Source of the DNA: Escherichia phage vB_EcoM-Ro111lw
Sequence record: MH571750.1
DNA: 64,000 bases
Strand: one strand, 5' to 3'
Part shown: one piece after another, positions 2,759 to 48,171 of the stretch
Layout: every line of letters starts with the position of its first letter
Position numbering within the stretch: position 1 is the stretch's first letter
The notes under the pieces: generated by a model
What the model was told of the DNA's origin: nothing
Databases searched by the model: none
Seen by the model: the letters and a program-made list of their open reading frames with translations, nothing else
Translations under genes and position numbers: made by a program

Positions 2759-4111
2759 ATGTGGAATCCAATTGTTAATGTAGATATTACATTGAACACC
2801 GCAGGAACTACAAGAGAAGGTTTTGGGCTGCCACTATTTTTAGCTTCAACAGATAACTTTGAAGAAAGAGTCCGTGGTTACACTTCCTTAACTGAAGTTG
2901 CTGAAGATTTCGATGAAAATTCTGCTGCATATAAGGCTGCTAAACAACTTTGGAGTCAGACTCCTAAAGTAACTCAGCTTTATATTGGTAGACGTGCTAT
3001 GCAGTACACTGTATCAATTCCTGATGAGGTTACTGAGAGCACCGACTATTCTTTAACTGTAGCTGTGAGCGGTGGAGTTTCTCAGCCATTCCAGTACACT
3101 TCACAGTCAGAAGATACTGCTGAGAAGGTGCTACAGCAGCTTAAAACTCAGATTGAAGCAGAACCTTCTGTAAAAGACCTTGTTACTGTCAATGTAACTG
3201 GTGCTGGCGGTTCAGCAACAATGGTAATCACCAAAGCTGGTGTCAACGACTTCGTGAAGGTTACTACTACAGCACAAACAGTGTCAATTGCAAGCACAAC
3301 TGCTGACACAGCATCGACTGCTCTGGCAGCTATTGAAGCGTATTCAACTGACTGGTATTTCATTGCAGCAGAAGACAGAACTCAACAGTTTGTCTTAGCA
3401 ATGGCTTCTGAGATTCAAGCTCGTAAGAAGATTTTCTTTACAGCTAACTCCGATGTAGCAGCACTGCAAGGTACAGAATTAGCGAGTGCAAATGATGTTC
3501 CAGCACAGCTTGCTAAGAATCAGTACACTCGTACAGTTTGCTTGTGGCATCACACAGCAGCAGAAGACTATCCAGAAATGGCTTATATTGCTTATGGTGC
3601 TCCGTATGATGCAGGTTCAATTGCTTGGGGTAACGCACAGCTAACTGGCGTAGCTGCTTCTCTACAGCCATCTAATCAGAGACCTCTGACAAGTATTCAG
3701 AAGTCAGCTTTAGATGCACGTCACTGTAACTTTATTGACCTTGATGGTGGTGTTCCAGTGGTTCGTAGAGGGATTACTTCTGGTGGGGAATGGATTGATA
3801 TCATCCGTGGTGTTGACTGGTTAGAATCAGACCTGAAAACTTCTCTGAGAGACTTGCTAATTAACCAGAAGGGTGGTAAGATTACTTATGATGATACTGG
3901 TATTACCCGTATTCGTCAAGTCATTGAAACCTCTCTGCAAAGAGCAGTCAACAGAAACTTCCTGTCATCTTACACAGTTAATGTTCCTAAAGCCTCTCAA
4001 GTTGCTTTGGCAGACAAGAAAGCTCGTATCCTGAAAGATGTTACCTTCGCAGGTATCTTGGCAGGGGCTATCTTGGATGTTGACTTGAAAGGTACAGTGG
4101 CTTACGAATAA
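2759..4111 (+). CDS. Tail sheath protein (putative)
   Basis: 450-aa ORF directly upstream of a ~148-aa tube-sized ORF, chaperone pair and tape measure; canonical contractile-tail gene order; assignment by synteny and size. Confidence 0.5.
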   Translation: MWNPIVNVDITLNTAGTTREGFGLPLFLASTDNFEERVRGYTSLTEVAEDFDENSAAYKAAKQLWSQTPKVTQLYIGRRAMQYTVSIPDEVTESTDYSLTVAVSGGVSQPFQYTSQSEDTAEKVLQQLKTQIEAEPSVKDLVTVNVTGAGGSATMVITKAGVNDFVKVTTTAQTVSIASTTADTASTALAAIEAYSTDWYFIAAEDRTQQFVLAMASEIQARKKIFFTANSDVAALQGTELASANDVPAQLAKNQYTRTVCLWHHTAAEDYPEMAYIAYGAPYDAGSIAWGNAQLTGVAASLQPSNQRPLTSIQKSALDARHCNFIDLDGGVPVVRRGITSGGEWIDIIRGVDWLESDLKTSLRDLLINQKGGKITYDDTGITRIRQVIETSLQRAVNRNFLSSYTVNVPKASQVALADKKARILKDVTFAGILAGAILDVDLKGTVAYE

Positions 4112-4126
4112 TAGAGGTAAATTGGA

Positions 4127-4573
4127 ATGGCTATGTATCAGCAATATTCCCCTAAAGACGTTGTGTGTAGCTGGAATGGTATTGCCATTGAAGGCTTTGC
4201 CCCAGACTCATTCTTACGTCTACAGAGAACATCACCACTTGTGACACCAGTTGTAGGTGCGGGTGGTCAGGTTGCTCTGACAAGAAATGCAGACAAGACA
4301 GGTACTATTGAGATTGAGTTAATGCAGACTTCTCTCTCTAATCAGATGCTTTCTGCAATTCAAGCTAAACAAGACAATATGGAACTTGAAGAAGATATCT
4401 CTTCTAACTTCGTAATCTACGACCCATCAGGCTCTGTTCTGGCAACTGGTATTAATGCTTGGTTGCAGGAATTACCACAGATTGAACTTGGTCGTGACCA
4501 GAACTCTAAAACTTGGATTTTTGGTTGTGAGAAGCTAGACTACACTTCTACAATTCCAGCGTCAAGTGTTTAA
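4127..4573 (+). CDS. Tail tube protein (putative)
   Basis: 148-aa ORF between sheath candidate and chaperones; followed by strong terminator. Confidence 0.5.
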   Translation: MAMYQQYSPKDVVCSWNGIAIEGFAPDSFLRLQRTSPLVTPVVGAGGQVALTRNADKTGTIEIELMQTSLSNQMLSAIQAKQDNMELEEDISSNFVIYDPSGSVLATGINAWLQELPQIELGRDQNSKTWIFGCEKLDYTSTIPASSV

Positions 4574-4585
4574 TAAATCCTATAA

Positions 4586-4617
4586 GGGGGAGACTTTAAA
4601 AGGTCTTCCCCTTTTTT
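4586..4617 (+). terminator. Rho-independent terminator after tail tube gene
   Basis: GGGGGAGAC / GTCTTCCCC stem (one G-U wobble) followed by TTTTTT. Confidence 0.6.
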
Positions 4618-4646
4618 GTTTCTTTTAAAAGTATTAAGGAATCACA

Positions 4647-5045
4647 ATGAAAACAGAATCTAGAGTAATTAATGGTAAGAAAGTAAATATTGTTCTGCTT
4701 GGGGCAAGAGATGGTATTAAGATGTCTATGAAGTTGGGTAAAATTGTTGTTCCAACCTTTGCACAGATGCTGTCAAGTCTGACTGATAAAGACAAGAAAG
4801 AAGCTCCAATGGTTCCATTTAAAGAACTTGTTGAAGCTTGTTTTGACAGAATTGAAGAAATTAACCTTGAAGAAATGGCTACCCTGCTGTTTCAAGGGGC
4901 AACTGTCGATGACTTCCCACTCAATATTGATACGTACTTCCAAGCAAACTACGGTGAGTTTATTGATTACTTAGCATTTGCGCTGGAGGCAAACTTCGGA
5001 AGTTTTTTCGAAGCAAGCATTTTCAAAAGCCTAACTTCTCAGTAA
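4647..5045 (+). CDS. Tail assembly chaperone (G-like)
   Basis: Small acidic ORF between tube and tape measure; slippery T_TTT_TTC heptamer at 5003-5009 near its 3' end. Confidence 0.55.
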   Translation: MKTESRVINGKKVNIVLLGARDGIKMSMKLGKIVVPTFAQMLSSLTDKDKKEAPMVPFKELVEACFDRIEEINLEEMATLLFQGATVDDFPLNIDTYFQANYGEFIDYLAFALEANFGSFFEASIFKSLTSQ

Positions 5046-5047
5046 AC

Positions 5048-5286
5048 ATGGGTAACACTCTACAGACACCACTGACTGATGCTGCTGTAGAGGCAACCTA
5101 TGAAGAAGCAGACGAGATGAAATTTGTGCTTGCTATTTATGGTATGGAAGGGTGTAAAGAAACACTTGACCAACTCTTTGCTATGACATTCTCTGATTTA
5201 TTATCATTGAGACAATTTCTTGAGATTCAGAGGTCGTATAAAGAGGAAATTGCTTACAACGAACTTAGAAGAGCAGGAAAAATGTA

Positions 5287-5287
<1 letters not shown>
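5048..5287 (+). CDS. Tail assembly chaperone frameshift extension (GT-like); probably made as -1 fusion with 4647..5045
   Basis: Lies in the -1 frame relative to upstream ORF; that frame is open upstream through the slippery site at 5003-5009. Confidence 0.5.
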
Positions 5288-10671
<5,384 letters not shown>

Positions 10672-46389: not shown

Positions 46390-48171
46390 ATGACTAAATC
46401 ACTTTATGCAGTACCAGCAGGTTTAAACGCAGATGCTTACAAATCTGGTCATGTTTACCAGTACCCTAGTGCAACAGAGTACTTGATGTTCAACCTGACA
46501 CCACGTAGTGACAAATGGTTTAACAGCCCCTTAGCAATTGATGGTGTAGTAGCTTTTGGTATTCAACGTTTCGTTAAAGATTACTTGATAGACCACTGGA
46601 ACGCCACTTTCTTTGAACGTGATAAAAAAGAAGCCATTGATGAAATCTTAGAAGTCATGAATGGTGTTCTGGGTAAAGATGCTATCGGTCGAGAGCATTG
46701 GGAAGCACTTCACGACTTAGGTTATCTACCAGTTGAAGTATACGCTGTAGAAGAAGGTACAGTTGTCCCTATGCGTGTCCCAATGATTGTCTTCCAGAAC
46801 ACTGTTTCAGGTTTCCATTGGGTAGCGGGGTATCTGGAAGATGCTTTCTCTGCTGAGATTTGGAAGGCTTGTACCATTGCAACTATTGCATTGCATTATA
46901 AACGCATCTGTAAGAAGTGGGCTGACCTTACTTGCGACAACGACTTACATTTATCTTATCAGTGCCATGACTTTGCTATGCGTGGTATGTCCGGCTTTAC
47001 TGATGACGCATTTAACGCTGTAGGCCACTTAACCAGCTTTAAAGGAACTGATAGCTTCCCTGCTGTGTATACGGCTAAACGAATCTATGGACAGTCTTAC
47101 CCAATCTCTGATATTGGTAGTTCTGTACCAGCCACTGAACACTCTGTGATGTGTGCAAACATTGCTTGGGAAGGTGGTAATGAGTTGATTGAAGAAGAAA
47201 GACGCTTTAAGGGTGAGTTACAAACCTTCCGTCGTTTCTTAACAGAAACTTACCCAACTGGTATTGCAAGTGTTGTTTCAGACACTTATAACTTCTGGAG
47301 AACTGTGTCAGAAATTTTACCAGCACTTCGTAAAGAAATTATGGAACGTGATGGCAAACTGGTAATTCGTCCTGACTCTGGAGACCCTGTACATATTGTC
47401 ACAGGTTATAAAGCAATCCACTTAGAATGTGCTAAGAAGGCTTATTACGAGCACCTAAGCAAGCTGGAAGCCAGTGACACAATGTTGAATGCTGTTCTGA
47501 ACATGAAGCTTGAAAACATCAACTATGGTATTGCTGGATGGCTACTGTCAGAAGGCTACGAAATGGTTGTTGACAGAGAAGACTTTGAAGTTGCTGATAC
47601 AGTGATGTTGAAGAACGCTTATATGGTTGGTTCTGCAAACGTTGTAACACGCCCTGTAGCAGAGATTGATGGAGCTATTAAGACCTTGTATAACATCTTT
47701 GGAGGAACTATTAACTCTAAAGGTTTTAAGGTACTGGATGAGCACATTGGCCTTATCTATGGCGACTCTATCACGTTGGAACGTGCAAACGAAATCCTGA
47801 AGCGTCTGTATGAAATGGGGTTTGCAAGCTCTAACGTGGTGTTTGGTGTAGGCTCTTACACTTACCAGTACATGACTCGTGACACCTTTGCATTTGCTGT
47901 CAAAGCAACTCTTGCAAGCATTGGTGGCAAAGAGATTATGCTTGCAAAAGACCCTAAAACAGATAGTGGTGTTAAGAAATCTGCCTTTGGTGGTGTAGCA
48001 CCTATGTGGGATGGTGAGAATTTGAAAGCTGTAGATGGCTATGGATTCCAGAGCTTTGCAGATGCACTTGAACATCCAGCTTGTGCTTTACGTTTAGTCT
48101 TTAGCGACTCTGAGCAGTACGGTTACACAACTCTTGGTGATATTCGAAATAATATTGACAAGCAGCTTTAA
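46390..48171 (+). CDS. Nicotinamide phosphoribosyltransferase family protein (NadV/NAMPT-like)
   Basis: 593 aa; adjacent to the PRS-like gene; N-terminal region and size consistent with NAMPT family; family assignment moderately confident, substrate not determinable. Confidence 0.55.
   Translation: MTKSLYAVPAGLNADAYKSGHVYQYPSATEYLMFNLTPRSDKWFNSPLAIDGVVAFGIQRFVKDYLIDHWNATFFERDKKEAIDEILEVMNGVLGKDAIGREHWEALHDLGYLPVEVYAVEEGTVVPMRVPMIVFQNTVSGFHWVAGYLEDAFSAEIWKACTIATIALHYKRICKKWADLTCDNDLHLSYQCHDFAMRGMSGFTDDAFNAVGHLTSFKGTDSFPAVYTAKRIYGQSYPISDIGSSVPATEHSVMCANIAWEGGNELIEEERRFKGELQTFRRFLTETYPTGIASVVSDTYNFWRTVSEILPALRKEIMERDGKLVIRPDSGDPVHIVTGYKAIHLECAKKAYYEHLSKLEASDTMLNAVLNMKLENINYGIAGWLLSEGYEMVVDREDFEVADTVMLKNAYMVGSANVVTRPVAEIDGAIKTLYNIFGGTINSKGFKVLDEHIGLIYGDSITLERANEILKRLYEMGFASSNVVFGVGSYTYQYMTRDTFAFAVKATLASIGGKEIMLAKDPKTDSGVKKSAFGGVAPMWDGENLKAVDGYGFQSFADALEHPACALRLVFSDSEQYGYTTLGDIRNNIDKQL

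What the first reader, a model, noticed from the sequence alone, without database searches (positions are those of the whole stretch)
5003..5009. Probable -1 programmed ribosomal frameshift (T_TTT_TTC) fusing the two tail-chaperone ORFs
In the frame of 4647..5045 the heptamer T TTT TTC lies 12 codons before its stop. The -1 frame is open from that point into 5048..5287. This is the conserved G/GT-type chaperone frameshift found between tube and tape-measure genes, and it supports the tail-module interpretation.
Basis: partly seen in the sequence, partly recalled or inferred. Interest (0 to 1): 0.4.

Follow-up and report, generated by a model that had tools for sequence, protein, structure and literature searches.

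The report
Tail-chaperone −1 frameshift site, already known
The T_TTT_TTC site is real and almost certainly lets a few ribosomes slip back one base to fuse the two small tail-chaperone reading frames of this Felix O1-like phage, but the same site is already annotated and published for this phage family, so it is an ordinary finding.

Summary
The window is a Felixounavirus (Felix O1-like myophage) tail module: sheath, tube, chaperone ORF 4647-5045, ORF 5048-5287, tape measure.

**Observation confirmed.**
- T_TTT_TTC (5003-5009) lies in the zero frame (AGT TTT TTC).
- The −1 frame is open from 4967 to 5287.
- A slip would give a 213-aa fusion.

**Significance.** In this one sequence the heptamer is only weakly significant, with about 0.1 expected by chance. 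Comparison settles it:
- Every relative examined keeps NNT_TTT_TTY at the same codon positions. That covers 13 GenBank phages, 80 IMG/VR loci forming 28 lineages at ≤60% identity and 35-65% GC, and 17 loci found through the tube gene.
- All of them have a 69-132-aa −1 extension.

**Other evidence.**
- The ATG at 5048 has no Shine-Dalgarno sequence and is not conserved.
- No 3' RNA structure is present or conserved.
- A Shine-Dalgarno-like GGAGG (4985-4989) sits 13 nt upstream, and its GAG codon is selected across lineages.

**Novelty.** The joined CDS is already annotated in phages Michonne, Maleficent and Meda. A 2025 paper reports the conserved GTTTTT motif across 231 Andersonviridae.

**Verdict.** It has not been shown experimentally. 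Transcriptional slippage would give the identical peptide and is not excluded.

The parts
2759..4111 (+). tail sheath gene (context)
   Evidence: phrog_205 tail sheath E=1.6e-125; PF11863
4127..4573 (+). tail tube gene (context)
   Evidence: phrog_280 E=1.2e-47; PF11681 KPP10_Orf10
4584..4613 (+). terminator-like hairpin (13-bp stem, then a T tract) between the tube and chaperone genes
   Evidence: annotated as 'terminator' at the homologous place in Michonne and Meda
4647..5045 (+). short chaperone ORF (G-like / TAC-N), 132 aa, the zero-frame product
   Evidence: PF21822 Phage_TAC_15 71.5 bits; phrog_1613 E=7.9e-49; Shine-Dalgarno AAGGA upstream, duplex dG −6.1
4985..4989 (+). Shine-Dalgarno-like GGAGG, 13 nt 5' of the heptamer; a candidate 5' frameshift stimulator (inferred)
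   Evidence: Anti-SD duplex peak at −17..−13: 79% of 28 lineages reach ≤ −4 kcal/mol against 8% background. GAG rather than GAA in 21 of 25 lineages, against 31% GAG-before-G elsewhere, P about 6e-8. Published spacing range for −1 shifts is 9-14 nt (PMC5009743).
5003..5009 (+). slippery heptamer T_TTT_TTC in the zero frame
   Evidence: conserved in 13/13 GenBank relatives, 80/80 IMG/VR loci and 17/17 loci anchored on the tube gene
4967..5045 (+). overlap zone in which both the zero frame and the −1 frame are open (26 codons)
5009..5287 (+). −1 frame extension (T-like / TAC-C part), 92 aa, containing ORF 5048-5287
   Evidence: phrog_4963 E=2.8e-55; the ATG at 5048 has no SD, dG +0.7
4647..5287 (+). 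predicted fusion product (join 4647..5009, 5009..5287), 213 aa, with junction ...ANFGSFF|RSKHFQKPNF...
   Evidence: homologous joined CDS annotated in Michonne, Meda and Maleficent
5287..7515 (+). tape measure protein gene (context)
   Evidence: phrog_4036 E=0; PF20155 TMP_3

Best explanation
**What it is.** This is the tail-assembly-chaperone recoding site of a Felix O1-like myophage.

**How it most likely works.**
- Most ribosomes translate 4647-5045 and stop, making the 132-aa short chaperone.
- A minority slip back one base when tRNA-Phe occupies the P site (UUU) and the A site (UUC) on U_UUU_UUC at 5003-5009. Both tRNAs re-pair with UUU UUU.
- These ribosomes read on in the −1 frame from CGA (5009) to the stop at 5285-5287. 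The product is a 213-aa protein carrying the short chaperone's first 121 residues plus a 92-residue C-terminal domain.
- By analogy with lambda gpG/gpGT, the shared N-terminal part coats the tape measure protein and the rare C-terminal domain recruits the tube protein. A fixed ratio of the two forms is then needed for tail assembly.
- The slip is probably boosted by pairing of the ribosome's anti-Shine-Dalgarno sequence with GGAGG 13 nt upstream, not by a downstream RNA structure.

**Shown here:** the anatomy, the homology and the conservation. **Inferred:** the slip itself, its efficiency, the role of the GGAGG and the protein functions.
For: - **Anatomy.** Heptamer in the zero frame, −1 frame open 4967-5287, +1 frame closed.
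- **Gene order and families.** Sheath, tube, TAC (PF21822), phrog_4963, tape measure.
- **Conservation of the heptamer.** NNT_TTT_TTY is invariant, with −1 extensions of 69-132 aa, in Felixounavirus, Mooglevirus, Suspvirus, Kolesnikvirus, Pectobacterium and Yersinia phages, Vequintavirinae and uncultured lineages. This holds even at 62-65% GC, where all other Phe codons are TTC. It also holds in loci found through the tube gene alone, one of which has Pro (CCT) instead of Ser.
- **Nucleotide identity.** Identity to distant relatives peaks at 4980-5025. For phiEa21-4 it is 0.93 there and 0.3-0.6 elsewhere.
- **Start codon.** ATG 5048 lacks an SD (dG +0.7, against ≤ −5 for its neighbours). It is ATA in L023. 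In Kolesnikvirus, phiEa21-4 has no ORF annotated there and SE5 only a short 37-codon one (1389-1502) covering the end of the extension.
- **Shift-proneness.** U_UU.C is the second most shift-prone tetramer in E. coli, and homogeneous heptamers are the most shift-prone (PMC4066793).
- **SD-like element.** It lies within the 9-14 nt spacing window and its codon is under selection.
- **Independent annotation.** The same slip is annotated in Michonne, Meda and Maleficent, and described in PMC4319497, PMC4591319, PMC5543628 and PMC12846349.
Against: - I found no experimental detection of the fusion protein for any member of this phage group.
- No 3' stimulatory structure: z = +0.85 and +0.56, and RNAalifold predicts 0 pairs. 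Efficiency could therefore be low.
- The heptamer in this single sequence is only about a 1-in-10 chance event.
- The IMG/VR scan used the peptide motif at the site as its search pattern. This biases the amino acids found, but not the codon choice.
- Lineages are not strictly independent, so the 1e-24 figure is naive.
- An extra U added by RNA polymerase on the T6 run would give exactly the same protein.
Confidence: 0.8

Rival explanations
1. Transcriptional slippage. RNA polymerase occasionally adds one extra U while copying the T6 run at 5003-5008. Normal translation of that mRNA then gives the same 213-aa fusion.
For: - The site is a homopolymer run.
- Some distant lineages have T7 or T8 runs.
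- AGU UUU UUU CGA also reads S-F-F-R, so the two mechanisms give identical proteins (derived).
- A weak hairpin (4983-4999) precedes the run.
Against: - Productive bacterial slippage is documented on runs of about 9 A/T (PMC5009743). Here the run is T6.
- The run sits in the same codon register in all 28 lineages.
- The upstream hairpin is not conserved (mean z −0.24).
- The conserved element upstream matches the ribosome's anti-SD at the spacing known for −1 ribosomal shifts.
Confidence: 0.08
2. Two separate proteins. ORF 5048-5287 is translated on its own from ATG 5048, perhaps by termination-reinitiation 2 nt after the TAA. No fusion is made.
For: - An ATG lies 2 nt after the stop codon.
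- Most GenBank and RefSeq records, including the nearest relative, annotate two separate CDS.
Against: - ATG 5048 has no Shine-Dalgarno sequence (dG +0.7, against ≤ −5 kcal/mol for neighbouring genes).
- The start is ATA in L023, lies at other positions in Mooglevirus and Suspvirus, and is missing for most of the extension in Kolesnikvirus and Wc4.
- This reading does not explain the invariant codon choice of the heptamer, or why the −1 frame is open back to it over as many as 44 codons.
Confidence: 0.07
3. Coincidence. The T run merely encodes a conserved Ser-Phe-Phe, and the open −1 frame is accidental.
For: - Single-sequence expectation is about 0.1 heptamers in the overlap.
- Phe120 and Phe121 are invariant residues.
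Against: - Synonymous positions are invariant in 28 lineages across 35-65% GC.
- The site persists when Ser becomes Cys or Pro.
- The −1 extension is a conserved protein family (phrog_4963, E=2.8e-55).
Confidence: 0.02

Closest known systems
Lambda gpG/gpGT-type tail assembly chaperone −1 frameshift (Levin 1993; Xu, Hendrix & Duda 2004; summarised in PMC5009743)
   Same: - Two overlapping ORFs lie between the tube/major tail gene and the tape measure gene.
- A canonical X_XXY_YYZ heptamer sits near the end of the first ORF.
- The second ORF is in the −1 frame and has no start signals of its own.
- Neither product is expected in virions.
   Different: - Different slippery sequence: T_TTT_TTC (tRNA-Phe) instead of lambda's G_GGA_AAG.
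- Contractile-tail phage.
- The protein belongs to Pfam PF21822 (Phage_TAC_15), not the lambda gpG family.
- The ratio of the two products is unknown.
Annotated chaperone frameshift of Felix O1-like phages: Moogle, Michonne, Mijalis, Maleficent and Meda; also the 'GTTTTT' motif of Andersonviridae and Vandenendeviridae (PMC12846349)
   Same: - It is the same homologous gene pair and the same heptamer.
- Michonne's annotated slip position 47149 falls inside its T_TTT_TTC.
- Meda is a Felixounavirus, 97% identical over this stretch.
   Different: None of substance. The window is simply another genome of the genus, in which most records still show two separate CDS. The 5' Shine-Dalgarno-like element described here is not mentioned in the passages I read.
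E. coli dnaX −1 frameshift cassette
   Same: A homopolymeric-type heptamer with a Shine-Dalgarno-like sequence 9-14 nt upstream. Here the element is GGAGG at 13 nt.
   Different: - dnaX also needs a strong 3' stem-loop and shifts at about 50%.
- No 3' structure is found here.
- dnaX slips on tRNA-Lys at A_AAA_AAG.
Phage P2 E/E+E' tail chaperone frameshift (a myophage precedent). The T-rich slip site is recalled from memory, not checked here.
   Same: A contractile-tail phage using a −1 shift in its chaperone gene. The review says P2-like phages shift 2-3 times more efficiently than lambda.
   Different: No detectable sequence relationship was tested.

Membership tests
G/GT-type tail assembly chaperone with programmed −1 frameshift | Gene pair located between the tube (major tail) gene and the tape measure gene | tested here: met
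   Tube 4127-4573, chaperone 4647-5045 and 5048-5287, tape measure 5287-7515
G/GT-type tail assembly chaperone with programmed −1 frameshift | Second ORF in the −1 frame, overlapping the end of the first | tested here: met
   −1 frame open 4967-5287; 26-codon overlap
G/GT-type tail assembly chaperone with programmed −1 frameshift | Canonical slippery heptamer X_XXY_YYZ in the zero frame inside the overlap | tested here: met
   T_TTT_TTC 5003-5009; the only such heptamer in the ORF
G/GT-type tail assembly chaperone with programmed −1 frameshift | Heptamer and frame relationship conserved among diverged relatives | tested here: met
   13/13, 80/80 and 17/17 loci; 28 lineages at ≤60% identity
G/GT-type tail assembly chaperone with programmed −1 frameshift | Downstream ORF lacks independent translation signals | tested here: met
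   dG +0.7 for ATG 5048 against ≤ −5 kcal/mol for neighbours; the start is not conserved
G/GT-type tail assembly chaperone with programmed −1 frameshift | Sequence membership in a curated tail-assembly-chaperone family | tested here: met
   PF21822 Phage_TAC_15, 71.5 bits (cutoff 22); phrog_1613 and phrog_4963
G/GT-type tail assembly chaperone with programmed −1 frameshift | Both the short and the fused protein are made, in a fixed ratio, and both are required for tail assembly | not testable with these tools
   Needs Western blot or mass spectrometry plus genetics. I found no such data for Felix O1-like phages.
G/GT-type tail assembly chaperone with programmed −1 frameshift | Chaperone fold of the N-terminal part | tested here: inconclusive
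   The single-sequence AlphaFold2 model is unusable (pLDDT 33). The PDB profile search gave only a weak full-length hit, 5ir0_A, E=0.25.
dnaX-like −1 frameshift cassette | Shine-Dalgarno-like sequence 9-14 nt 5' of the heptamer | tested here: met
   GGAGG 4985-4989, 13 nt spacing; conserved and codon-selected. Its function is inferred.
dnaX-like −1 frameshift cassette | Stable stem-loop or pseudoknot 5-9 nt 3' of the heptamer | tested here: not met
   z = +0.85 (51 nt) and +0.56 (81 nt); RNAalifold predicts 0 pairs in 6 Ounavirinae; no Rfam match
Programmed transcriptional slippage | Long A/T homopolymer (about 9), or a shorter run directly preceded by a strong conserved hairpin | tested here: not met
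   The run is T6. The upstream hairpin is weak and not conserved. Run length benchmark from PMC5009743.

The most novel reading that the evidence does not exclude
The whole Phage_TAC_15 chaperone family may carry one frozen recoding cassette: GAGG, 13 nt, then U_UUU_UUY, embedded in the peptide motif E-[AV]-N-[FY]-G-[SC]-F-F. The family spans Felix O1-like, rV5-like and many uncultured myophages from 35% to 65% GC.

In Ounavirinae this cassette would work through a 5' Shine-Dalgarno-like stimulator alone, with no 3' structure. Distant lineages appear to add a 3' structure.

The conserved T-run has been published. The selected 5' element and the presence or absence of the 3' structure have not, as far as I could find.
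Probability: 0.45. Interest if true: 0.3.

Novelty: already known. Interest (0 to 1): 0.15.

Why it matters
**Practical value.** The two 'tail assembly chaperone' CDS of this genome should be annotated as a short product plus a joined frameshift product. Most Felixounavirus records, including the RefSeq entry of the nearest relative, still lack this.

**Scientific value.** It adds little. The chaperone frameshift is a textbook feature of long-tailed phages and has been pointed out for this phage family.

**The one modest addition.** There is statistical evidence that a Shine-Dalgarno-like GAGG 13 nt upstream is under selection across the family, and that Ounavirinae lack any 3' structure. This would make the site a clean natural model for 5'-stimulated −1 frameshifting on tRNA-Phe.

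Tried and rejected
- **Downstream stimulatory structure.** Folding 51, 81 and 121 nt after the heptamer gave energies no better than shuffles. RNAalifold on six Ounavirinae gave zero pairs. Rfam gave nothing relevant. A strong local hairpin at 5058-5091 lies 49 nt away and is not conserved, so I rejected it as a stimulator.
- **Upstream hairpin, which could promote transcriptional slippage.** It is not conserved (mean z −0.24).
- **Locus scan using only the N-terminal part of the chaperone.** I replaced it with a scan anchored on the tube gene.
- **Structure prediction of the 213-aa fusion from a single sequence.** The model had pLDDT 33 and was unusable.
- **PDB sequence search.** Only sub-threshold hits.
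- **Xu et al. 2004.** The paper is not held in the library.
- **Literature search for experimental proof in Felix O1-like or rV5-like phages.** None found.

Full report
**What the window is.** The stretch 4100-5400 is 98.9% identical to Escherichia typing phage 1 and matches 294 phage records, nearly all of them Felix O1-like myophages of Escherichia, Salmonella, Shigella, Citrobacter and Erwinia. Felixounavirus now sits in Andersonviridae, subfamily Ounavirinae. The local gene order is as follows:
- sheath, 2759-4111 (phrog_205);
- tube, 4127-4573 (phrog_280, PF11681);
- a 132-aa ORF, 4647-5045 (PF21822 Phage_TAC_15, 71.5 bits against a cutoff of 22; phrog_1613);
- a 79-aa ORF, 5048-5287 (phrog_4963 'tail assembly chaperone', E=2.8e-55);
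- the tape measure protein, 5287-7515 (phrog_4036, PF20155).

**The observation.** Positions 5003-5009 read TTTTTTC. In the frame of 4647-5045 the codons are AGT TTT TTC, which is T_TTT_TTC in the X_XXY_YYZ register. Eleven sense codons and then TAA follow. The −1 frame is open from 4967 through 5287, and the +1 frame is closed. A −1 slip gives a 213-aa product, 121 + 92 residues, with the junction ...ANFGSFF|RSKHFQKPNFSVNMGNT.... It is the only in-frame heptamer of this type in the ORF.

**Is it more than chance?** Within this one sequence, only weakly. In-frame X_XXY_YYZ heptamers occur at 0.0037 per codon in 67 long ORFs of the window, so about 0.095 are expected in the 26-codon overlap. 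TTTTTTC is, however, unique on the coding strand of the 64 kb. The comparative evidence is decisive.
- **GenBank relatives.** All 13 fetched carry T_TTT_TTC at the homologous codons, with a 75-92-residue extension beyond the zero-frame stop (92-124 residues counted from the heptamer). They include Felix O1, radambza, Meda, Michonne, Sf17, SUSP1, phiEa21-4, SE5, Arno162, Wc4, Yersinia P778 and the Vequintavirinae A5-4 and Av-05, the last two at 27-30% identity.
- **IMG/VR loci.** Eighty loci all have NNT TTT TTY with 69-116-aa −1 extensions (of them). They form 28 clusters at ≤60% amino-acid identity, with GC from 35% to 65%. In the GC-rich lineages every other Phe codon of the gene is TTC, yet the site keeps TTT.
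- **Naive probability.** With pooled codon usage (TTT 40%; third-position T in Ser/Cys codons 35%) the per-lineage probability is 0.14, which gives about 1e-24 for 28 lineages.
- **Caveats.** That scan used the peptide motif at the site as its search pattern, so the amino acids are ascertained, though codon choice is not. The lineages are also not fully independent.
- **Control for the ascertainment.** I anchored a second scan on the tube protein. All 17 non-Felixounavirus loci with a chaperone-sized ORF after the tube gene again have T_TTT_TTC and a 93-132-aa −1 extension. One of them has Pro (CCT) in place of Ser.
- **Nucleotide identity.** Identity to distant relatives peaks exactly here. 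Against phiEa21-4 it is 0.93 at 4995-5024 and 0.3-0.6 elsewhere. In blastn this island (4992-5032) is the only part of the gene that aligns to the Erwinia phages.

**Is the second ORF an independent gene?**
- ATG 5048 has no Shine-Dalgarno complementarity (duplex dG +0.7 kcal/mol). Seventeen of the 18 other starts checked in the module score −5 to −12.6; the exception, at 84, scores −1.3.
- The ATG is ATA in one close relative, L023.
- The first start codon lies at different places in Mooglevirus and Suspvirus.
- In Kolesnikvirus and Wc4 most of the conserved extension has no start at all.

Independent translation is therefore unlikely, although reinitiation 2 nt after the TAA cannot be formally excluded.

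**Stimulatory elements.** I found none.
- The 51 and 81 nt after the heptamer fold no better than shuffles (z = +0.85 and +0.56).
- RNAalifold over six Ounavirinae predicts no pairs.
- Rfam has no match.

Several distant lineages do have strongly structured 3' sequence (z down to −4.3), so the family is not uniform in this respect.

Upstream, GGAGG at 4985-4989 lies 13 nt before the heptamer. The published window for Shine-Dalgarno-like stimulators of −1 shifts is 9-14 nt (PMC5009743).
- Across the 28 lineages, anti-SD complementarity shows a sharp peak at −17 to −13. There, 79% reach ≤ −4 kcal/mol, against 8% background.
- Part of this peak follows from the conserved Glu-Ala/Val. However, the Glu codon is GAG in 21 of 25 lineages. 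Glu codons followed by G are GAG only 31% of the time elsewhere in the same loci (P about 6e-8).

I therefore infer a 5' Shine-Dalgarno-like stimulator. This is an inference from codon statistics, not a demonstration.

**Mechanism.** In E. coli, U_UU.C is the second most shift-prone A-site tetramer after A_AA.G, and heptamers with homogeneous X and Z bases are the most shift-prone (PMC4066793). The most likely sequence of events is as follows.
1. tRNA-Phe in the P site (UUU) and the A site (UUC) both re-pair one base back on UUU UUU.
2. Translation continues with CGA at 5009.
3. The cell therefore makes many copies of the 132-aa protein and a few of the 213-aa fusion.

By analogy with lambda gpG/gpGT (review text), the common N-terminal part binds the tape measure protein and the extra domain recruits tube subunits. 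Neither product ends up in the virion. These functions are inferred from family membership.

**Rivals.** I rate it low for three reasons:
- documented productive slippage uses runs of about 9;
- the run keeps one codon register in all lineages;
- the conserved upstream element matches the ribosome rather than forming a conserved hairpin.

A minor alternative shift site, the in-frame T_TTC at 5021-5024, would give ...EASIF|QKPNF....

**Comparison with what is known.** The same slip is already annotated as a joined CDS in three phages:
- Citrobacter phage Michonne, noted as 'ribosomal slippage (47149)', a position that maps inside its T_TTT_TTC;
- Citrobacter phage Maleficent;
- Salmonella phage Meda, a Felixounavirus.

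It is mentioned in the genome announcements of Moogle, Michonne and Mijalis. [quoted passage not shown] The original Felix O1 genome paper does not mention it. Most records, including the RefSeq entry of the closest relative, still show two separate CDS. I found no experimental demonstration for this phage group.

**Verdict.** The feature is already known at the level of prediction and annotation. Interest is low. The modest additions are the selected 5' Shine-Dalgarno-like element and the absence of a 3' structure in Ounavirinae.

Noticed in passing
window 4584-4613: A strong terminator-like hairpin (13-bp stem, 6 GC pairs, followed by TTTTGTTTCT) lies between the tube gene and the chaperone gene. 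It is annotated as a terminator in Michonne, Meda and wV8. It may lower expression of the chaperone and tape measure genes relative to sheath and tube.
   Followed up: partly
window, whole 64 kb: TTTTTTC occurs once on the + (coding) strand, at 5003, but 11 times on the − strand. This suggests that T6C runs are avoided in the sense strand of this genome.
   Followed up: no
window 5021-5024: An in-frame T_TTC tetramer (ATT TTC) lies inside the overlap zone and within the conserved 41-nt island. It is a possible minor second −1 shift site and would give the junction ...EASIF|QKPNF....
   Followed up: no
window 5058-5091: A stable local hairpin (CUCUACAG...CUGUAGAG) lies 49 nt downstream of the heptamer. 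Its 5' arm is not conserved in Michonne or SUSP1, and it is too far away to be a classical stimulator.
   Followed up: partly
L054, L062, L066, L068, L078, L080, L082 (IMG/VR), 10-70 nt after their heptamers: Distant members of the chaperone family have strongly structured RNA 3' of the heptamer (z −2.6 to −4.3). They also share a recurrent GGTATTGG (Gly-Ile-Gly) about 15 nt downstream. Ounavirinae lack both features.
   Followed up: no
L023 (IMGVR_UViG_3300045988_004167), position homologous to window 5048-5050: The ATG that opens ORF 5048-5287 is ATA in this otherwise near-identical phage. This is consistent with the ORF being read only by frameshifting.
   Followed up: partly
L126 (IMGVR_UViG_3300019764_000067) 3076-4578: A tube homologue (56% identity) is followed by a 500-aa ORF instead of a small chaperone gene, so this tail-module layout differs.
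   Followed up: no
28 lineage representatives, Glu codons in long + strand ORFs: Glu codons followed by G are GAG only 31% of the time (187 of 607). This suggests general avoidance of internal GAGG, which makes the 21/25 GAG count at the frameshift cassette stand out.
   Followed up: partly
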